UHGV virus genome: UHGV-0390443
From: a virus
DNA length: 39,252 nt
Direction: 5' to 3' (one strand)
A model generated the notes under the pieces. That model had not been told where the DNA came from. It did no database searches and was given only the letters and a program-made list of their open reading frames with translations. The position numbers and the translations under genes are program-made. Positions 710 through 31,304 of the stretch are shown here, one piece after another. Positions within the stretch are counted from its first letter, which is position 1. The number at the start of each line of letters is the position of its first letter.

Positions 710-742
710 AATAGATATGAAAAGACCGCCGGATGGCGGTCT
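710..742 (-). terminator. Putative intrinsic terminator after Cro-like gene (tR1-like position)
   Basis: Stem AGACCGCC/GGCGGTCT (723..742) with loop GGAT; minus-strand downstream tract TTTCATAT. Confidence 0.45.
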
Positions 743-763
743 ACAGAGGGTTGTGGCTGGATA

Positions 764-994
764 TCATGAGTAGAAGAAGTATGCCAGTTCTGCTTTTGAG
801 CGCAGCCATTGTCTTGTTTTACAGGCTTTAAAAAGCCCATTCATCAATACCTTACCTGGCATTTTGCGCTTACCTGTTAAGTGAGTCTGGATATAGTGAC
901 TCGTCGTTCCGGCTTCCTGTGCGAAGGCTTCACGCTCATCCGGAGTAAGTGCAAGCCAGTGCTTTTTGAAATCGAAATGTCCGTTATCGCTCAT
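764..994 (-). CDS. Cro-like HTH DNA-binding protein (first gene of minus-strand early operon)
   Basis: 76-aa ORF; HTH-like segment FAQEAGTTSHYIQTHLTGKR; divergent from repressor across operator-containing intergenic region. Confidence 0.6.
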   Translation of the reverse strand: MSDNGHFDFKKHWLALTPDEREAFAQEAGTTSHYIQTHLTGKRKMPGKVLMNGLFKACKTRQWLRSKAELAYFFYS

Positions 995-1148: not shown

Positions 1149-1733
1149 ATGAAAAGTATCCAGGACGTCCGCAGGCAAAATCTCAACGACTTGATCGACC
1201 GTGAATTCAATGGTGTTCAGACGCGGATGGCAGAAAAACTTGGAACTCAGGCAAATCTGGTAAACCGCTGGGCTCTTGGCAAGAAGGTTATCGGCGACCA
1301 GGTTGCGCGAAAAATTGAAGCTGCCGCCAATAAACCCCGTAACTGGCTTGATATCGATCGCTCGCTTTCTCAGGAAGGTTTTCAGCCTGTCGGCCCAAGC
1401 GACATTGGTCAGCTGGCGGCTCACAACCTGGAACGCTGGATGAGCGAAAGCCGCGACCTTTCAACACAGGGAAAACTTCACCGCGCATCCGGCGTCGCCC
1501 AGGTGACAATCAGCCGCCTGTTAAACAATGAGGTCAGCGTTTCCATTTCCACCCTGGAGAATGTTGCATCCGCATTCGGGCGTCACGGCTATGAATTACT
1601 GATTCACCCGCACGACCCTGCGACCATCAACTATGACCGCTCGCGCTACGCATTGTTACCCGAAACCGAGAAAGCAAAGATCGAAAGTTACATTGAATTT
1701 GTCATCAACCAGAACGAAAAAAACAAACAATAA
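1149..1733 (+). CDS. Phage repressor-like regulator with two HTH modules (CII/XRE-like N-terminal HTH plus second HTH); no LexA-like peptidase domain evident
   Basis: 194-aa ORF; motifs QTRMAEKLGTQANLVNRWALGKK and LHRASGVAQVTISRLLNNEVSVSISTLENVASAFG; CI-like position (divergent from Cro-like gene, followed by terminator). Confidence 0.65.
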   Translation: MKSIQDVRRQNLNDLIDREFNGVQTRMAEKLGTQANLVNRWALGKKVIGDQVARKIEAAANKPRNWLDIDRSLSQEGFQPVGPSDIGQLAAHNLERWMSESRDLSTQGKLHRASGVAQVTISRLLNNEVSVSISTLENVASAFGRHGYELLIHPHDPATINYDRSRYALLPETEKAKIESYIEFVINQNEKNKQ

Positions 1734-9263: not shown

Positions 9264-11804
9264 TCATTTTTTTACATTGCCATTTTCAATGGCTAAAATT
9301 CTCTTTTCCATATTATCAATTCTCTCCCAGCATTGCTGAATTGATTTAACAATAGGCGGGATGAATTCATCGTAACCAAGTGAGTAAACATCATCCCCAC
9401 CATTTTTCAAGTGATGCTGTAGTCCACCGAACTCAACACCTAATTCTTCACACAGTTTCAATACGTCCTGTGCAATAAACCAGTGATGGTATCGTTGACG
9501 TTTTTTACTGCCGTCAGGAGTTTTCTGCACTACTTCAAGATATTTTTCTTCGACATTCTCAATAGCTGATATAGTAATTCCATCAACATCTCGTTCTACT
9601 TTTTTTGGTACAATTCTTGTTTTTTCAATAACATCAACATAATCATCACGCATATCCCAGCGACCATCGACAGGACGAAGCCCAAGGATAAATTCAATCC
9701 CCAGCAAGGTATCTCGGATATCTGTTTTATCACGCGCATCAGATCTGTTTTGCACAGTTCCATATACATATGTCGTTGTGGAAGAATTGCCAAGCTGCAC
9801 CTGGTTACTTCCAGACACCCTTGCATCATTGCCAACAGTTGTTGTGTTGGTAAGTGATGATGTGCTTTCCCCTGATTGAGTTAATCTACCTGAATTATGT
9901 CCAATAGCCGTGTTTAATGCGCCGGTTGTATTTGTGACAAGAGAGCCAGACCCGATTGCAACGTTACTGCTTCCCGATGTTGTTCCTTTTAATGCCTGCT
10001 GTCCAACCGCAACATTATTATCACCCGTTGCTGCTATAAGTGCCATGTGACCAATAGAAACGGTAAATGAACCTAGCGTTTGAGTTTCACCGCATGCCCC
10101 ATAACCAATTACAACAACATTATCTGTAATTGTTGACTCGGTTGCCGCTCCAGCACCAATAACAACGCTTTCATTCCCGGCAAGATTCTTGCGCATTGCG
10201 AACATTCCAATGCCAACATTATCATGCCCAGTCCCTGTTCCTGCAGCCTCCGCAGCACCAAGACAGTTTCCTGCTCTGTAGCCAACCATGGTGTTATTTG
10301 AACCAATAGAGAAGTCTCCGGCAAAAGAGCCTACGTATACACTATTAGACTGTGAGTAATCTCCAGGATTTCCATTCGCCCGATATCCTACTGCAACTGT
10401 ATAAATAGTATCTGGAGCCTCAGCCATGGCCTCAAAGCCAACCCCAACGTTATATCTACCGCCCTTAACTTTTTCTCCTGCACCAAGTCCGAAGAATGAG
10501 TTATAGCTCCCGGTTGTTAGCCACTCGCCAGCAACAGAACCTACAGCAGTGTTTCCTGTTCCAGTACATCGATACAAAGTCAGGAAGCCAACTCCGGTAT
10601 TATTATTTCCTGAAATATTACTCATCAATGATTTTGACCCAATGGCAGTATTGTTAACACCATCGGTCAGATCCTGTAACGCTCGCGGGCCAAATGCTGT
10701 ATTATCGTAACCCTTTGGCGCTGTTGTTGGATCTGGTAACTCAGGGGTTAGTTTTTCACCACCACCACCATTGGCACAAAGATTGTAAGATCGAATAAAT
10801 TCAGCCACTGGCCCAAGTTTTAAATAACCATTGGCAATATTAATTCTGACACTTACATTAACTGAGCTACCAGGAGCTTCTATTGTCCTGTCATCAACCC
10901 AGGTAAAACTCTGTGGTATCCCGTCATAAGTTAATGTCACATCTCCTTTATCATTATAATTATAGAACAATGTATAACGCTCATTTATAGATTCAGAACC
11001 TGATGATCCTCCTCTCCTCCACCACTCTGCATTATCAAAAATAAGTAATCCCGGACCATAATATTTAGCTTTCTGTCCCAAAATCATAGGGCTTGATAAT
11101 CTCCATACCCCCTCAGGAACATATATATTGCTACTTATTCTTTCAGCATTATTAAAAGCAGTATCACATAGCTCGTCACCACCTTCTTTAGCTCCAAAGT
11201 CCAGAACACTGACAGTATCCCGCATCTTATCCTGGAACGTTCGATATACTGCTCCAGAACCATACTGAATAAACCAACCAAAACCACCAACAACCCCGGC
11301 GATTGCAGCATCGACATAATTACGCATTGAGCGATTATTTACAGCGTCCTGCTCAAGTGATGGATCTGCAAGGTTAGAAATTCTGTTTTGCTTTGCATCG
11401 TAATATTTTGCAAGCAAAGATGGTTTCATCAATGCACGTCTGAACCATCCAAAACATTGCTGGATCAGCATCGTCAGATAGTCAAAGGCATCTTCATGCA
11501 CCTCGGGGAAAAATTTTCCCTGATTACGAAGATCAGTCTCCTGCACCACATCAAGCACACGATCTATCGTAATTCGCCATCCAGCAGCAAGCGGCGACGG
11601 AAGAACAACAGAACCGCCACTATAAGTGCCCGCCCCAGTTACCATATAACCGGTATCCAGAACCAATTCTGTTACGTTCCCGTTCAGGTCAGACACCTGA
11701 ACAACCAGGTCGGATTTTTTGAAAATACGGAAGGTGTACGGGAATGATGTCGTAATGCCGTTACCGGTGTATTCGTTGTGGTCAACTTCGGTTGAGACCG
11801 TCAT
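9264..11804 (-). CDS. Tailspike / tail fibre with Gly-rich beta-helical repeats and C-terminal peptidase S74-type intramolecular chaperone domain
   Basis: 846 aa; central repeated NTA-x-G motifs; C-terminus SDARDKTDIRDTLLGIEFILGLRPV...DEFIPPIVKSIQQC typical of auto-cleaving chaperone domains. Confidence 0.8.
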   Translation of the reverse strand: MTVSTEVDHNEYTGNGITTSFPYTFRIFKKSDLVVQVSDLNGNVTELVLDTGYMVTGAGTYSGGSVVLPSPLAAGWRITIDRVLDVVQETDLRNQGKFFPEVHEDAFDYLTMLIQQCFGWFRRALMKPSLLAKYYDAKQNRISNLADPSLEQDAVNNRSMRNYVDAAIAGVVGGFGWFIQYGSGAVYRTFQDKMRDTVSVLDFGAKEGGDELCDTAFNNAERISSNIYVPEGVWRLSSPMILGQKAKYYGPGLLIFDNAEWWRRGGSSGSESINERYTLFYNYNDKGDVTLTYDGIPQSFTWVDDRTIEAPGSSVNVSVRINIANGYLKLGPVAEFIRSYNLCANGGGGEKLTPELPDPTTAPKGYDNTAFGPRALQDLTDGVNNTAIGSKSLMSNISGNNNTGVGFLTLYRCTGTGNTAVGSVAGEWLTTGSYNSFFGLGAGEKVKGGRYNVGVGFEAMAEAPDTIYTVAVGYRANGNPGDYSQSNSVYVGSFAGDFSIGSNNTMVGYRAGNCLGAAEAAGTGTGHDNVGIGMFAMRKNLAGNESVVIGAGAATESTITDNVVVIGYGACGETQTLGSFTVSIGHMALIAATGDNNVAVGQQALKGTTSGSSNVAIGSGSLVTNTTGALNTAIGHNSGRLTQSGESTSSLTNTTTVGNDARVSGSNQVQLGNSSTTTYVYGTVQNRSDARDKTDIRDTLLGIEFILGLRPVDGRWDMRDDYVDVIEKTRIVPKKVERDVDGITISAIENVEEKYLEVVQKTPDGSKKRQRYHHWFIAQDVLKLCEELGVEFGGLQHHLKNGGDDVYSLGYDEFIPPIVKSIQQCWERIDNMEKRILAIENGNVKK

Positions 11805-11960: not shown

Positions 11961-11980
11961 TACTGTATAAATATACAGTT
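11961..11980. promoter_or_regulatory. LexA (SOS) box TACTGTATAAATATACAGTT
   Basis: CTGT-N8-ACAG with AT-rich spacer, near-perfect to E. coli consensus TACTGTATATATATACAGTA; 20 bp upstream of ATG 12001. Confidence 0.75.
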
Positions 11981-12000
11981 ATTGCATGGAGAAGATAAGA

Positions 12001-12257
12001 TGCAGCAGTATCACTATCCACTGGAAGACGGATTTACCGAAAGGATTCACACGCCGGGAGGCGTCAGATCACTGGTGGAGGGATCGCACTTGATGAAATT
12101 ACTCCGGGATCTCGATAAGGATGGATTTAATGTCGATGGCCCACTTGCCGAACTGACTGCACTGATTAACTACGTCACCAGCTCACAGATGTCTATGCAG
12201 GATCTGCAAACACATCTCGACTATTGTGCCGAACAATTACGAAAGCAAACCAGATAA
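12001..12257 (+). CDS. Small antirepressor-like protein (paralog of the C-terminal domain of the downstream Bro-N antirepressor), putatively SOS-induced
   Basis: 85 aa from ATG 12001 (RBS GGAGAAG); HTPGGVRSLVEGSHLMKLLRDLDKDGFNVDGPLAELTALINYV aligns with HSPSGVLGLTEHSLLMNLLNQLQEDGHDVSGAAAELTTMFCYI of 12571..13263; ORF-track start 11877 rejected because the LexA box lies inside it. Confidence 0.6.
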
Positions 12258-12289
12258 GGTTTGCAATTACCAAGTGGAGTGCTTATATT

Positions 12290-12304
12290 TACCTTTGCGG
12301 TAAA
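12290..12304. promoter_or_regulatory. Operator TTACCTTTGCGGTAA
   Basis: Perfect family dyad, extended palindrome ATTTACC...GGTAAAT. Confidence 0.55.
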
Positions 12305-12570
12305 TTTACATCGCACTCCTCTTGTGCCATAGTAATCAGGCACTGGCAAAATCCAGTGCCGGGATTGGTCTCCCGGATTACTACAGAGGCACATATGCCG
12401 CATAAGCGGTTTTTTTATGTGTAAAGCGCACCTATTCTATGGTGGGCTGTGTGGGGGCACCGAAAGGTGCGCCGGGTTCCTTTGTAGCCGGTAAGACCAA
12501 CTCTGCACAGTTCACCACCATCTGATTGGTCTCAGCGGTGGTGATTAACCTAACTACAAAGGTGATCGCC

Positions 12571-13263
12571 ATGAATACCAAACCTTCCATCTTTTCCTTT
12601 GAGTCATCCTGCCAGATCCGTATGTTCATGATTGACGGAGAACCTTGGTTTGTCACCAAAGATGTGTGCAATGCTTTGAATATTGATGTTACACAAGCGA
12701 GAAAACTTGATAAAAAAGGCTGGAACAAAAAGGGGCTGTATTCAATACAGACCCCTGGTGGAATACAAGAACTATCCATCGTTTCAGAATCAGGTCTCTA
12801 CATCCTTATTCTGCGTTGCAAAGAGGCAATGACAGAGGGAACGAGAGCATTCAGATTTCTTGAATGGGTTACAGGTGAGGTTCTTCCTCAGATCCGCCGC
12901 ACCGGAAGTTACATTAAAAACTCGCTCCCGCAGGAAGAACGCATAAAGATGGTTGCCGACCAGGTAGCCAACGCCACGGCGTCAGCAGTAATGCAGGCGA
13001 TGAAGATAGAGAACAAAACCTACAGTGCCCCACTGAAGCCCGGCTACCGTAGCCTGATTCATTCGCCGTCTGGTGTTCTCGGCCTGACGGAGCACTCACT
13101 GCTGATGAATCTGCTGAACCAGTTACAGGAAGACGGGCATGATGTATCAGGCGCGGCGGCGGAGCTGACCACCATGTTCTGCTACATCGTCGGTGTGAGC
13201 AAATGCCTGCGTGATATCCAGACGCACGCGGAGTACATCAACGACAAGGCTGGGTTCTTCTGA
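12571..13263 (+). CDS. Antirepressor with Bro-N N-terminal domain and Ant/KilA-C-like C-terminal domain
   Basis: ATG 12571 with RBS AAAGGTGA; Bro-N signature SIFSFESSCQIRMFMIDGEPWFVTKDVCNALNI. Confidence 0.75.
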   Translation: MNTKPSIFSFESSCQIRMFMIDGEPWFVTKDVCNALNIDVTQARKLDKKGWNKKGLYSIQTPGGIQELSIVSESGLYILILRCKEAMTEGTRAFRFLEWVTGEVLPQIRRTGSYIKNSLPQEERIKMVADQVANATASAVMQAMKIENKTYSAPLKPGYRSLIHSPSGVLGLTEHSLLMNLLNQLQEDGHDVSGAAAELTTMFCYIVGVSKCLRDIQTHAEYINDKAGFF

Positions 13264-13329: not shown

Positions 13330-13344
13330 TTACCTTAAAGGTAA
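13330..13344. promoter_or_regulatory. Operator TTACCTTAAAGGTAA overlapping a putative promoter (-10-like TAATAT 13325..13330)
   Basis: Perfect dyad 27 bp upstream of ATG 13371. Confidence 0.55.
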
Positions 13345-13370: not shown

Positions 13371-13580
13371 ATGGGATTTTGGTTCGCTCGTACAAAAACG
13401 AGGGATAATGCACCCAGCCCTCAGGCAAAAAATGCAGAAGTTCCGGCGTCAGCGCAGGTTAACAAGCGTGGTGGAGTATATATCTCATCACAGCAAATTT
13501 CTGAGCTTCCTGAGGTTAAGGAGATGCGTCGTCTCGCTGCTGCAATTGTTAAACAGGATCTTGCCACTGTAAGGAAGTAG
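13371..13580 (+). CDS. Small soluble hypothetical protein (69 aa), first gene of a two-gene moron operon
   Basis: ORF with strong RBS GAGGAGGAG; stop overlaps start region of the membrane protein gene. Confidence 0.55.
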   Translation: MGFWFARTKTRDNAPSPQAKNAEVPASAQVNKRGGVYISSQQISELPEVKEMRRLAAAIVKQDLATVRK

Positions 13581-14446
13581 TGTTGCTAGCTCTTCTAATT
13601 ATCCCAATCCTGGTTAGCGGTTATATTATGATAACCGCTAACCAGTATCATTATTTCCGTTTATACCGACACGAAGGCCAGCTTCTTTATATGAAAGTAG
13701 CGGCACTAGGTACATATTGCCTTGTTGCATCAGTAATAATTGCAGCCGCTATAAAATATAAATGGCCTGATTTTCACCTAGTTCACGATATGGTGGAAAC
13801 TTTTAATGTAACATCAAAACCAGAAACAGATAGAATTTACATGTGGCTGCTTCTTCTCTCAGCCACATCCATTTGCTTCTCTTTGTGTTATGTGTCTGTT
13901 GTGTGGGTGAAAGATTTTCTTCTTGGTTGTTTTTATAAACGTGATATTTACGAGCAAAAAACAGAGGCAATGAAGGCCAGAGTACTGCGAAAAACTTACT
14001 CGCAAGGTTCTTTAGACTTACTATTGCTTGATGCTATTGAATCGGATCCTAAACGACCAATGCTGATTACTTTATCATCAAACAAAGTGTATGTTGGAAT
14101 AATAAATGGTTCTGGTGAACCAACGGAAAATCAGGGTCCGCATCAGCACATATCTTTTGTTCCTTTAATGTCAGGATACAGGAACAAAGAAAACTTATCT
14201 GTCACATTCACTAATGCTTATCCAGGAGAAATACAGGTCAAGCGGACTGCAGCAATAAGAGGAATTAGCAGAAAGAAAGTGCCAGGACTTGAGATCATGG
14301 TGTCTATTGACGAAATAAGTTATATATCATGGTTTGATTTTGAAGTATATAAAGCAACAAATAACAAAGTAGAATCCAGGGGGCACGTTATTCGTGTTAC
14401 CAAAAATGGAAGAAATATATATCAAAGAAATAGCAAAAAAGAATAG
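13580..14446 (+). CDS. Membrane protein with about 3 N-terminal TM helices and a ~170-aa C-terminal soluble domain; function unknown
   Basis: 288-aa ORF, low GC; hydrophobic segments LLALLIIPILVSGYIMITA, VAALGTYCLVASVIIAAAI, IYMWLLLLSATSICFSLCYVSVVWV; start (GTG 13580 or TTG 13583) uncertain. Confidence 0.55.
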   Translation: MLLALLIIPILVSGYIMITANQYHYFRLYRHEGQLLYMKVAALGTYCLVASVIIAAAIKYKWPDFHLVHDMVETFNVTSKPETDRIYMWLLLLSATSICFSLCYVSVVWVKDFLLGCFYKRDIYEQKTEAMKARVLRKTYSQGSLDLLLLDAIESDPKRPMLITLSSNKVYVGIINGSGEPTENQGPHQHISFVPLMSGYRNKENLSVTFTNAYPGEIQVKRTAAIRGISRKKVPGLEIMVSIDEISYISWFDFEVYKATNNKVESRGHVIRVTKNGRNIYQRNSKKE

Positions 14447-25094: not shown

Positions 25095-25702
25095 CAGGAC
25101 AACCTCGCAATGGTAAACTCGTCAACCGGTGGCTGTGGTTCCTGTGATTCATTCTGGCTATGCGAGCCAGCACTAAGAATCACGCGATTGTACATATTGA
25201 GGGCAAACGTACCGAGGTCTGCATTCCCAGTCAGCGCCATGTTAATAGCTGCCGCAAGACGCCAGGCCAACGCCTCCATAAAAATGGCATCAAACATGTT
25301 CACATCTGAAACGCGAGAGACATACTTGAGCCATGCCTGCGGCTGGTCTGTGTAGATCAACTTTCCTGTTCCGTTGGTGTCTGCACCAACTTCGTACTGA
25401 ACGCGCATTGCTGCTGTTGGATTGCGTACACCAGGAAGCATAATTTCAGTAATGCGCAGACAATCGGACGGGTACTGGTACGCATATTCCCAGTCAGGCG
25501 GTGGATTGCTCGTATCTGCAAGCGCCACGCGTTTGGTAGCAAAGTTCCAGTCAAAATCAGAAAGAACAGCATCACGGCAGGCCTCAAAGTGCAGCGAACA
25601 TTCACCCGCTTCCTTGCTGGCTTCCGTCAGGCTGTTAATACTGCGGCTGTTGCCAATATTGGACAGCGCACGATTACAGATCTCTACTACAGAGGCCATC
25701 AC
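25094..25702 (-). CDS. Tail tubular protein A-like (adaptor) structural protein
   Basis: 202 aa; position and size as T7 gp11. Confidence 0.6.
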   Translation of the reverse strand: MMASVVEICNRALSNIGNSRSINSLTEASKEAGECSLHFEACRDAVLSDFDWNFATKRVALADTSNPPPDWEYAYQYPSDCLRITEIMLPGVRNPTAAMRVQYEVGADTNGTGKLIYTDQPQAWLKYVSRVSDVNMFDAIFMEALAWRLAAAINMALTGNADLGTFALNMYNRVILSAGSHSQNESQEPQPPVDEFTIARLS

Positions 25703-31227: not shown

Positions 31228-31304
31228 GTGGCATTAGCTCAGTTGGACAGAGCAACCGCCTTCTAAGCGGTTGGTCGCAGGTTCGAATCCTGCATGCCAC
31301 GCCA
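31228..31304 (+). tRNA. tRNA-Arg (anticodon UCU), with encoded CCA
   Basis: Manually folded cloverleaf: acceptor GTGGCAT/ATGCCAC, D-stem GCTC/GAGC, anticodon stem ACCGC/GCGGT with loop CTTCTAA, T-stem GCAGG/CCTGC with TTCGAAT loop. Confidence 0.85.

What the first reader, a model, noticed from the sequence alone, without database searches (positions are those of the whole stretch)
12340..12570. Structured untranslated leader upstream of the antirepressor gene
Between the small antirepressor-like gene and the Bro-N antirepressor there is a ~230-nt segment with no ORF but several hairpins: CACTGG-CAAAAT-CCAGTG (12348..12365), CCGGGA-TTGGTC-TCCCGG (12366..12383), CCGC-ATAA-GCGG followed by T7 (12393..12412), and GCACC-GAAA-GGTGC with a GNRA loop (about 12457..12472). 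In P22 the ant gene is controlled by an antisense RNA; a comparable cis-RNA element or small RNA here is plausible.
Basis: inference. Interest (0 to 1): 0.4.

Follow-up and report, generated by a model that had tools for sequence, protein, structure and literature searches.

The report
P1-type IsrK/C4 RNA switch controlling antirepressor
The hairpin-rich gap in front of the phage antirepressor gene holds two already catalogued small-RNA genes (IsrK and the C4 antisense RNA) that most likely keep the antirepressor untranslated, so the finding is real but ordinary.

Summary
The hairpins exist. They are more than chance and belong to two curated Rfam families on the + strand: isrK (12340-12416, 74.7 bits, cut-off 50) and C4 antisense RNA (12435-12522, 78.6 bits, cut-off 45).

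The layout copies the immI region of phage P1. A sigma-70 promoter is followed by a 77-nt terminated RNA carrying decoy sites a1 and b1. Next comes a three-way-junction C4 RNA exposing a' and b'. Target sites a2 and b2 follow, and b2 (12554-12562) overlaps the antirepressor Shine-Dalgarno (12559-12565; ATG 12571).

In 19 loci from phages of Escherichia, Salmonella, Hafnia, Klebsiella, Enterobacter, Hamiltonella and Actinobacillus, there are 16 different b' loops. Each matches its own b1 and b2 (0 of 20000 permutations do as well).

Most likely mechanism: processed C4 pairs with the ant leader and blocks translation, and IsrK titrates C4. The pairing pattern is shown here. Processing and the direction of regulation are inferred from P1 and Gifsy-1 experiments.

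The P22 sar analogy (an RNA from the opposite strand) is wrong in mechanism. Gifsy-1's orf45 translational coupling is absent here. Novelty: already known, although unannotated in GenBank and RefSeq records of this phage group. Interest is low.

The parts
12289..12303 (.). Operator-like palindrome TTACCTTTGCGGTAA abutting the -35 hexamer of the isrK promoter. It is a candidate binding site for the phage's main repressor.
   Evidence: TTACC-N5-GGTAA occurs 13 times in the window against 0.71 expected. Two copies lie between the divergent HTH repressor-type genes 764-994(-) and 1149-1733(+). The palindrome arms are kept and the centre varies in phiV10, Tyrion and the Klebsiella phage. No binding was tested.
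12305..12333 (+). Predicted sigma-70 promoter of the isrK-C4-ant transcript: TTTACA, 17-nt spacer, CATAGT, with TG before the -10. The start site would be near 12340.
   Evidence: Promoter scan. A -35/-10 pair at the same distance from the isrK 5' end is present in all 19 loci. The Rfam isrK model starts at 12340.
12340..12416 (+). IsrK-like small RNA, the carrier of the a1/b1 sites. Hairpin 1 is at 12340-12359. Hairpin 2 is at 12360-12375. Single-stranded b1 follows. An intrinsic terminator is at 12397-12416.
   Evidence: Rfam RF01394, 74.7 bits (cut-off 50). Fold z = -2.8. Terminator scan hit. Compensatory changes in hairpin 1.
12365..12371 (+). a1: UUGGUCU in the loop of IsrK hairpin 2, complementary to a' of C4.
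   Evidence: 7-bp perfect complement. Duplex -9.5 kcal/mol. The homologous Gifsy-1 pairs G28-C162 and G31-C159 were proven by published compensatory mutations.
12381..12389 (+). b1: CUACAGAGG, complementary to the b' loop of C4 (9 bp, one G.U).
   Evidence: Duplex -14.7 kcal/mol, reached by 0.2% of shuffled targets. Cognate b':b1 mean 8.1 against 4.6 for non-cognate, 0 of 20000 permutations.
12435..12522 (+). C4 antisense RNA. The closing stem pairs 12440-12456 with 12501-12517. Hairpin 1 is at 12457-12470 (GAAA loop). Hairpin 2 is at 12471-12492. A CCA tail follows at 12518-12520. By alignment with the annotated P1 c4 ends, the mature RNA would be about 12441-12519.
   Evidence: Rfam RF01695, 78.6 bits (cut-off 45). 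Fold -43.6 kcal/mol, z = -4.5. The same architecture folds in all 19 loci. Covariation. P1 c4 ends from the NC_005856 annotation.
12479..12487 (+). b': CCUUUGUAG in the loop of C4 hairpin 2, the recognition loop.
12494..12500 (+). a': AGACCAA in the single-stranded junction of C4, the second recognition segment.
12526..12532 (+). a2: UUGGUCU, the target of a' in the ant leader, 4 nt after C4.
   Evidence: Duplex -9.2 kcal/mol. There are 7 a' classes among the loci; cognate matching was reached in 4 of 20000 permutations.
12512..12544 (+). Alternative hairpin in which the 3' arm of the C4 closing stem (UCACCACC) pairs with downstream GGUGGUGA and displays a2 in its loop. It is mutually exclusive with the C4 fold.
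   Evidence: Predicted in all 19 loci, -12.9 to -22.2 kcal/mol. Both arms are changed in Actinobacillus pPE4 (UCGCCACC/GGUGGCGA) and P1. It is part of the minimum-energy fold of the read-through transcript. Its function is not known.
12554..12562 (+). b2: CUACAAAGG, the target of b'. It overlaps the ant Shine-Dalgarno AAGGUGA (12559-12565).
   Evidence: 9-bp perfect complement ending 8 nt before the ATG. Duplex -12.6 kcal/mol. Cognate b':b2 mean 8.8 against 5.3 for non-cognate, 0 of 20000 permutations over 16 b' classes.
12571..13263 (+). ant: Bro-N antirepressor gene (230 aa), the regulated gene.
   Evidence: Pfam Bro-N, 1.8e-13, and PHROG anti-repressor Ant. RefSeq uses the same start. The orthologue in Uetakevirus ZX5 promotes the lytic cycle when overexpressed (PMC9782041).

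Best explanation
The segment is a P1-type 'immI' RNA immunity module made of two known RNA genes placed in front of the antirepressor gene.

- A sigma-70 promoter (12305-12333) starts transcription near 12340.
- Most transcripts stop at the weak intrinsic terminator (12397-12416). This gives a 77-nt IsrK-like RNA that carries sites a1 and b1.
- Read-through transcripts continue through the C4 element and into ant.
- C4 folds into a long stem with two hairpins and a tRNA-like CCA tail. By analogy with P1, RNase P and 3' trimming process it to a stable RNA of about 79 nt.
- The exposed junction a' (AGACCAA) and loop b' (CCUUUGUAG) of C4 pair with a2 (12526-12532) and b2 (12554-12562) in the ant leader.
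- b2 covers the Shine-Dalgarno, so ribosomes cannot start on ant and the prophage stays repressed. In P1 the untranslated message is then also terminated prematurely.
- IsrK presents the same two sites (a1, b1) as decoys. When IsrK is abundant it ties up C4, or opens the read-through transcript, and Ant is made, which favours induction.
- The two short pairings act as a specificity code that differs between phages.

Shown here: family membership, the folds, the complementarities and their co-variation. Inferred from P1 and Gifsy-1 experiments: processing, action in trans, and the direction of regulation. Inferred from sequence only: control of the promoter by the phage repressor through the adjacent palindrome.
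For: - Both RNAs hit Rfam on the + strand above the curated cut-offs.
- The same isrK-then-C4-then-gene order occurs in 17 other phage loci, and in P1 with isrK below its cut-off (35.1 bits).
- In P1 the annotated a1, b1, c4, a2, b2, icd and ant features have the same order and spacing.
- Window complementarities: a':a1 and a':a2 are 7 bp; b':b1 and b':b2 are 9 bp; b2 ends 8 nt before the ATG. Duplex energies are -9.2 to -14.7 kcal/mol.
- Across 19 loci there are 16 b' classes and 7 a' classes. Cognate matches exceed non-cognate ones: b':b2 8.8 against 5.3, and b':b1 8.1 against 4.6. For b', 0 of 20000 permutations do as well; for a', 4-5 of 20000.
- Stems show compensatory changes.
- The read-through transcript has two competing folds: -100.5 kcal/mol with a1b1 paired to a'b' in cis, and -92.0 with separate IsrK and C4 folds. 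These correspond to structures A and B shown experimentally in Gifsy-1 (PMC4825925).
- The published Gifsy-1 compensatory mutants G28A/C162U and G31A/C159U fall exactly on a1:a' pairs.
- A stable RNA of about 80 nt is processed from the read-through transcript in Salmonella (PMC4825925).
- The Ant orthologue of a 94.6%-identical relative drives the lytic cycle (PMC9782041).
Against: - No transcript data exist for this phage, so the promoter, termination, processing and RNA abundance are all predictions.
- In Gifsy-1 the authors explain activation through an upstream ORF (orf45) and not through relief of C4 repression. Constitutive expression of the C4 region did not protect against IsrK toxicity there. 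The decoy role of IsrK is therefore not settled even in the model system.
- Two loci break the rule at b2: IdasGreatGrand has only 4 bp and VT2-Sakai only 6 bp. SfV has a mismatch in a2.
- The c4-a1b1 Rfam model scores below its cut-off here (38.4 against 46.7).
- Pairing in cis only, without any trans-acting RNA, cannot be excluded by sequence analysis.
Confidence: 0.8

Rival explanations
1. Gifsy-1-type activation by translational coupling. The read-through RNA is silent because the ribosome-binding site of a small upstream ORF (orf45, starting at the AUG in the C4 5' arm) is buried. IsrK in trans opens it, and ribosomes finishing that ORF then start on ant.
For: This is the published model for the homologous Gifsy-1 locus, where orf45 overlaps the anrP start (PMC4825925; the ORF stop overlaps the anrP start by 4 nt). 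The conserved AUGGUGGG is present in the window at 12439. The two alternative folds also exist here.
Against: In the window the ORF from that AUG is 28 codons long and stops at 12525, 45 nt before the ant ATG. Ant has its own Shine-Dalgarno. Across 19 loci this ORF varies from 8 to 200 codons, with ends anywhere from 108 nt upstream of the next start codon to far inside the next gene. It is therefore not a conserved coding unit. The b2-on-Shine-Dalgarno arrangement is conserved, including in Gifsy-1.
Confidence: 0.08
2. P4-type transcriptional immunity. C4 (like P4 CI RNA) pairs with the upstream and downstream sites (like seqA and seqC) mainly to cause premature transcription termination, and does not work by blocking the ribosome.
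For: The three-part layout is the same: upstream target, processed RNA, downstream target. The IsrK authors draw this parallel. In P1, translational repression by c4 is followed by premature termination (my knowledge of Biere, Citron and Schuster 1992; that paper was not read here).
Against: b2 sits on the Shine-Dalgarno and ends 7-11 nt before the start codon in 16 of 19 loci. That is the signature of translational control. No terminator-like site lies between C4 and ant. The two mechanisms are not exclusive.
Confidence: 0.1
3. A purely cis-acting structured leader or attenuator. The terminator and the alternative folds tune read-through and ribosome access on the same molecule, and no free small RNA has a function.
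For: The minimum-energy fold of 12340-12600 pairs a1b1 with a'b' within one molecule. Covariation cannot distinguish cis pairing from trans pairing.
Against: In P1, c4 acts in trans and defines heteroimmunity between P1 and P7 (annotation). In Salmonella both the short IsrK and the RNA of about 80 nt accumulate, and IsrK works from a plasmid in trans. The conserved CCA-tailed stem suggests an excised RNA.
Confidence: 0.05
4. A P22 sar-like antisense RNA transcribed from the opposite strand across the ant ribosome-binding site.
For: It offers only a functional parallel: ant genes are often under antisense control. The IsrK region folds about equally well on either strand.
Against: Both Rfam hits are on the + strand. 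The C4 fold has 6 G.U pairs that cannot form on the - strand, and the - strand fold is weaker (-32 against -43.6 kcal/mol). No - strand promoter-like site lies in 12258-12570. The T-run terminator reads only on the + strand.
Confidence: 0.02

Closest known systems
immI region of phages P1 and P7 (c4 antisense RNA, a1/b1, a2/b2, icd, ant1/2)
   Same: - Same RNA family: P1 c4 scores 68.8 bits and the window 78.6 bits on RF01695.
- Same order: promoter, a1, b1, c4, a2, b2, then gene, with b2 on the ribosome-binding site.
- Same three-way-junction fold with a' in the junction and b' in the loop of hairpin 2.
- A repressor operator sits next to the promoter: Oc4 in P1, and the TTACC-N5-GGTAA palindrome here.
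   Different: - There is no icd gene; b2 sits directly on the ant ribosome-binding site.
- The a1/b1 segment is a full IsrK-type RNA with a clean terminator. P1 reaches only 35.1 bits on isrK.
- The a/b codes differ: UUGGUCU and CUACAAAGG here against UUGACAG and GUUAGUG in P1.
- The host phage is an integrated epsilon15-like podovirus, not a plasmid prophage.
- The antirepressor is a Bro-N protein.
Gifsy-1 isrK-orf45(STnc1160)-anrP-isrJ locus of Salmonella (Hershko-Shalev et al. 2016, PMC4825925)
   Same: - Same two Rfam families in the same order before an antirepressor gene.
- The same alternative folds A and B.
- The a1:a' pairs are supported by published compensatory mutants.
- A processed RNA of about 80 nt corresponds to the C4 element.
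   Different: - No orf45-ant overlap here, so translational coupling is not available.
- No isrJ downstream and no antQ upstream.
- The b code differs.
- The published model does not invoke the P1 c4 mechanism; the paper does not mention P1.
P4 immunity: CI RNA with seqA and seqC
   Same: Same logic of a processed RNA from the leader with complementary sites upstream and downstream of itself. The IsrK authors cite it as a structural homologue.
   Different: P4 CI acts by premature transcription termination of the replication operon and does not cover an antirepressor ribosome-binding site. This rests on my own knowledge. No P4 sequence was compared here.
P22 immI: sar antisense RNA controlling ant
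   Same: An antirepressor gene held in check by an RNA that pairs with its translation start region.
   Different: sar is transcribed from the opposite strand and is fully complementary. It has no homology to C4 or IsrK. Here both RNAs are on the same strand and use two short interrupted pairings.

Membership tests
C4 antisense RNA (Rfam RF01695; P1/P7 c4) | Covariance-model score at or above the curated gathering score | tested here: met
   78.6 bits against a cut-off of 45, full-length match to model positions 1-87, + strand.
C4 antisense RNA (Rfam RF01695; P1/P7 c4) | Long closing stem enclosing two hairpins, supported by covariation | tested here: met
   The minimum-energy fold equals the family consensus. 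The same fold is found in 19 loci. 9 of 24 predicted pairs have compensatory changes.
C4 antisense RNA (Rfam RF01695; P1/P7 c4) | Two exposed segments (a', b') complementary to a2 and b2 downstream, with b2 at a ribosome-binding site | tested here: met
   7 bp and 9 bp. b2 overlaps the Shine-Dalgarno and ends 8 nt before the ATG. The pairing co-varies across loci.
C4 antisense RNA (Rfam RF01695; P1/P7 c4) | Complementary a1/b1 sites upstream on the same transcript | tested here: met
   a1 at 12365-12371 and b1 at 12381-12389.
C4 antisense RNA (Rfam RF01695; P1/P7 c4) | Excision from a longer precursor by RNase P; stable RNA of about 77 nt acting in trans | not testable with these tools
   Only the sequence prerequisites can be seen: a stem followed by a CCA tail (ACCACCA), kept in most of the 19 loci but absent in P1 itself and in Gifsy-1 and APSE-2.
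C4 antisense RNA (Rfam RF01695; P1/P7 c4) | icd gene between c4 and ant (a feature of P1/P7, not of the family) | tested here: not met
   ant starts 48 nt after C4. The same is true of most other loci, so this feature does not define the RNA family.
IsrK (Rfam RF01394) | Covariance-model score at or above the gathering score, with two 5' hairpins and an intrinsic terminator | tested here: met
   74.7 bits against a cut-off of 50, model positions 1-77. Terminator scan hit at 12397-12410 followed by a T run. Hairpin 1 covaries.
IsrK (Rfam RF01394) | Own promoter directly upstream, with read-through feeding the antirepressor gene | tested here: inconclusive
   A promoter-like site with 9 of 12 matches and TG lies at 12305-12333 and is conserved in position. 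No transcript data are available.
IsrK (Rfam RF01394) | Activation of the antirepressor through a translationally coupled upstream ORF (orf45) | tested here: not met
   The ORF ends 45 nt before the ant ATG and is not conserved in length.
IsrK (Rfam RF01394) | Hfq binding | not testable with these tools
   Only a U-rich 3' tail can be seen.
c4-a1b1 motif (Rfam RF03163) | Covariance-model score at or above the gathering score | tested here: not met
   38.4 bits against a cut-off of 46.7 at 12327-12379. The structure matches, but the first 13 model positions, which cover the promoter -10 region, differ. The stretch is covered by the isrK model.
P22 sar antisense RNA | [quoted passage not shown] | tested here: not met
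   Strand evidence.

The most novel reading that the evidence does not exclude
The IsrK-type RNA may act generally as a sponge for C4 and not as an activator through a small ORF. The IsrK, C4 and ant-leader RNAs would then form a three-RNA switch whose two short pairings (a and b) are a freely re-programmable code. That code would define RNA-based immunity groups among enterobacterial prophages: 16 b codes were seen in 19 loci. In this epsilon15-like phage the switch would be one of two parallel inputs to the same repressor. The other input is a LexA-controlled 85-aa protein consisting of only the Ant C-terminal domain. Both inputs sit behind promoters that carry the phage repressor's own operator.
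Probability: 0.35. Interest if true: 0.4.

Novelty: already known. Interest (0 to 1): 0.15.

Why it matters
For annotation, this stretch should be labelled as two ncRNA genes (isrK and C4). Neither the closest RefSeq E. coli record nor the phiV10 GenBank record shows them. In several related phages, gene callers run a protein-coding gene straight through them.

For biology, the result says that the Bro-N antirepressor of epsilon15/phiV10-like prophages, carried by about 10% of complete E. coli genomes, is probably under P1-style RNA immunity. That would affect superinfection immunity and cross-talk between co-resident prophages with the same a/b code.

The result also links two literatures that do not cite each other, P1 c4 and Gifsy-1 IsrK. 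It does not reveal a new kind of system.

Tried and rejected
1. Opposite-strand (sar-like) RNA: rejected on strand evidence.
2. Small ORFs in the gap (12322-12405, 12417-12494, 12439-12525) as genes: rejected. The ORF from the conserved AUG varies from 8 to 200 codons among relatives and is shaped by the RNA stem.
3. orf45-type coupling: rejected for this window.
4. Membership in the c4-a1b1 family: below the cut-off. The stretch is filed under isrK.
5. Extra copies of the b motif at 741-749 and 25687-25695, and of TTGGTCT elsewhere at a frequency not above chance: none sits at a + strand ribosome-binding site that I could see. They were not pursued.
6. The primary P1 papers (Citron and Schuster 1992; Heinrich et al. 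1994) are not held in the library. The P1 mechanism therefore rests on the NC_005856 annotation, secondary descriptions and my own knowledge.
7. RNAalifold did not recover the terminator hairpin or C4 hairpin 2 in the MAFFT alignments, because the variable loops misalign. Single-sequence folds recover both in every locus.

Full report
**Origin of the window.** The window is an epsilon15/phiV10-like podovirus (genus Uetakevirus) of E. coli. The 1.45-kb stretch around the finding is 98% identical to phage EC.W1-9 and 92-95% identical to phiV10, ZX5 and TL-2011b. It is found in 542 of 5426 complete E. coli genomes. The gene order around the finding is:
- a tail fibre gene, 9264-11804 (-);
- an 85-aa ORF, 12000-12257 (+);
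- a 313-nt gap;
- the Bro-N antirepressor gene ant, 12571-13263 (+).

**Observation.** Three of the coordinate ranges are 5-7 nt off. The true positions are 12340-12359, 12360-12375, 12397-12416 (stem plus T7) and 12457-12470.

They are not chance structures.
- The 77-nt and 88-nt units fold with z = -2.8 and z = -4.5 against dinucleotide shuffles.
- Both match curated Rfam covariance models on the + strand with E about 1e-14. These are isrK (RF01394, 12340-12416, 74.7 bits, cut-off 50) and C4 antisense RNA (RF01695, 12435-12522, 78.6 bits, cut-off 45).
- The fourth is the first inner hairpin of C4.

**Relatives.** A sensitive DNA search finds the segment in 225 phage records. I fetched 17 diverse loci plus P1. 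They come from phiV10, Gifsy-1, Hafnia yong2, APSE-1 and APSE-2, VT2-Sakai and other Stx phages, SfV, Enterobacter Tyrion, a Klebsiella phage and an Actinobacillus phage, among others.
- Every one of the 17 has isrK followed 22-27 nt later by C4 on the same strand, both above the gathering scores, and then a gene 46-57 nt after C4.
- In most loci that gene is annotated as an antirepressor (Ant, Rha or Bro-type).
- P1 has C4 (68.8 bits), the c4-a1b1 motif (51 bits) and a sub-threshold isrK match (35.1 bits).
- The stems covary: 7 of 11 predicted pairs in IsrK and 9 of 24 in C4 show double compensatory changes.

**Anatomy compared with P1.** The P1 GenBank record annotates this order: operator Oc4, promoters, a1, b1, c4 RNA, a2, b2, icd, ant. 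The window has the same plan.
- a' (AGACCAA, 12494-12500) lies in the single-stranded junction of C4. It is perfectly complementary to UUGGUCU in the loop of IsrK hairpin 2 (a1, 12365-12371) and to UUGGUCU again 4 nt after C4 (a2, 12526-12532).
- b' (CCUUUGUAG, 12479-12487) lies in the loop of C4 hairpin 2. It is complementary to CUACAGAGG in IsrK (b1, 12381-12389, one G.U) and to CUACAAAGG (b2, 12554-12562).
- b2 overlaps the ant Shine-Dalgarno AAGGUGA (12559-12565) and ends 8 nt before the ATG.
- Duplex energies are -9.2 to -14.7 kcal/mol.

**Test of the pairing.** The 19 loci carry 16 different b' loops and 7 different a' segments. In nearly every locus b1 and b2, and a1 and a2, have changed in step. 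Examples for b' and b2 are CCUUUUAG with CUAAAAGG in phiV10, CCGUAUGC with GCAUACGG in PhiR47_1, and CACUAAC with GUUAGUG in P1.
- Cognate b':b2 complementarity averages 8.8 against 5.3 for non-cognate combinations.
- Cognate b':b1 averages 8.1 against 4.6.
- None of 20000 permutations of the class pairings reaches the observed sum.
- For a', 4-5 of 20000 permutations reach it.
- Exceptions: IdasGreatGrand has a b2 of only 4 bp, VT2-Sakai has 6 bp, and SfV has one mismatch in a2.

There is also independent experimental support. In Gifsy-1, random mutants G28A and G31A in IsrK derepress anrP, and C162U and C159U restore the inactive fold (PMC4825925). Mapped onto the sequence, these residues are exactly the a1:a' pairs G28-C162 and G31-C159.

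**Strand.** The RNAs are on the ant strand.
- Six of the 28 pairs in the C4 fold are G.U.
- The reverse strand folds to only -32 kcal/mol (z = -2.1).
- The T-run terminator reads only on the + strand.
- No - strand promoter-like site lies in the gap.

The P22 sar analogy is therefore functional only.

**Promoter and its control.** TTTACA-17-CATAGT with TG before the -10 (12305-12333) places the start near 12340. Equivalent hexamers sit at the same distance in all loci. Directly upstream is the palindrome TTACCTTTGCGGTAA (12289-12303).
- TTACC-N5-GGTAA occurs 13 times in the window against 0.71 expected.
- Two copies lie between the divergent HTH repressor-type genes at 764-994 (-) and 1149-1733 (+).
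- I infer that the phage's main repressor, or its Cro-like partner, also binds at the isrK promoter, as C1 does at Oc4 in P1. This is inference only.

**Alternative folds.** The read-through transcript 12340-12600 has two competing folds.
- The minimum-energy fold (-100.5 kcal/mol) pairs a1 and b1 with a' and b' in cis.
- The competing fold (-92.0 kcal/mol) has separate IsrK and C4 structures.

These correspond to structures A (silent) and B (active) demonstrated for Gifsy-1. In fold A the 3' arm of the C4 stem pairs with a conserved downstream GGUGGUGA (12512-12544) and displays a2 in a loop. This hairpin is predicted in all 19 loci and has both arms changed in Actinobacillus pPE4 and in P1. 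Its role is not known.

**Difference from Gifsy-1.** In Gifsy-1 a 45-codon ORF starts at the AUG in the C4 5' arm and overlaps the anrP start, and anrP translation depends on it. In the window the same AUG (12439) opens only 28 codons and stops 45 nt before the ant ATG. Among the 19 loci the ORF ranges from 8 to 200 codons. Coupling is therefore not available here and the ORF is not a conserved gene. What is conserved, including in Gifsy-1, is b2 on the ribosome-binding site of the downstream gene.

**Mechanism (committed).**
- Processed C4 RNA pairs through a' and b' with a2 and b2, and occludes the ant Shine-Dalgarno. This keeps the antirepressor off in the lysogen and against superinfecting phages with the same code.
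- IsrK is produced by termination at 12416 and carries the decoys a1 and b1. It competes for C4, or opens fold A, and so allows Ant synthesis.
- Ant then inactivates the repressor. The ZX5 orthologue promotes the lytic cycle when overexpressed (PMC9782041).

I give 0.8 to this module identity and general logic. I am less sure about the sign and importance of the IsrK effect. It is debated even for Gifsy-1, where constitutive expression of the C4 region did not protect against IsrK.

**Novelty.** Both RNA families, the a/b pairing principle and its role in heteroimmunity (P1 versus P7) are established. This sequence passes the curated thresholds of a routine Rfam scan, so the finding is already known in kind.
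- The RNAs are not annotated in phiV10 or in the closest RefSeq E. coli record.
- The one paper on antirepressor control in a close relative does not mention RNA.
- The IsrK paper does not cite P1.
- Rfam keeps isrK outside the C4 clan although it overlaps c4-a1b1.

These are gaps in bookkeeping. They are not new biology.

Noticed in passing
window 11961-11979 and 12000-12257 (+): A near-consensus LexA box (TACTGTATAAATATACAGT; CTGT-N8-ACAG) lies 21 nt upstream of the 85-aa ORF. That ORF is 42% identical to the C-terminal domain of Ant (aa 149-222; phrog_450). The phage therefore seems to carry a second, SOS-controlled mini-antirepressor made of the Ant C-terminal domain alone, next to the RNA-controlled full-length Ant.
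   Followed up: partly
window 1031, 1079, 1791, 1853, 6875, 11909, 12289, 13330, 30891, 34036, 34054, 37914, 37976 (15-nt sites): The palindrome TTACC-N5-GGTAA occurs 13 times against 0.71 expected. The sites are often in pairs and lie in front of genes, including between the divergent HTH repressor-type genes at 764-994(-) and 1149-1733(+). This looks like a dispersed operator set for the phage repressor, reminiscent of the scattered C1 operators of P1.
   Followed up: partly
window 12512-12544: A conserved alternative hairpin in which the 3' arm of the C4 stem pairs with downstream GGUGGUGA and shows a2 in its loop. It is present in all 19 loci, with both arms changed in two of them. It competes with the C4 fold, and its function is unknown.
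   Followed up: partly
L003 1288-1971, L006 1125-1961, L010 1125-2273, L012 1328-1873: In Hafnia yong2, SfV, PhiR47_1 and 2H10 the deposited CDS run straight through the isrK and C4 RNA genes. The products are named 'Ash family protein', 'immunity region', 'Rha protein' and 'putative antirepressor'. The AUG in the C4 stem is in frame with the real downstream gene, so these starts are probably mis-called.
   Followed up: partly
L009 (IdasGreatGrand) 1580-1712; L005 (VT2-Sakai) 1597-1733: These loci are exceptions to the code. IdasGreatGrand keeps b1 (8 bp) but has no b2 match at the ribosome-binding site (4 bp). VT2-Sakai has only 6 bp at b2. These may be escape ('virulent-like') or decayed modules.
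   Followed up: no
window 12327-12379; Rfam RF01394 vs RF03163: Rfam holds two overlapping models for the same element, isrK and c4-a1b1. Only c4-a1b1 is in the C4 clan CL00128. The first 13 positions of c4-a1b1 align to the promoter -10 region, so they model DNA signal and not RNA.
   Followed up: partly
window 31228-31304 (+): A phage-borne tRNA-Arg (anticodon TCT).
   Followed up: no
window 741-749 and 25687-25695 (+): Two further exact copies of the b1 sequence CTACAGAGG. In total CTACARAGG gives 5 matches in the window against 0.35 expected, three of them inside the module. Whether C4 has extra targets was not examined.
   Followed up: no
window 13330-13344 and 13371-14446 (+): Downstream of ant, another TTACC-N5-GGTAA site precedes two genes of unknown function (69 aa, phrog_5739; 288 aa, phrog_3630) with no Pfam match.
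   Followed up: no
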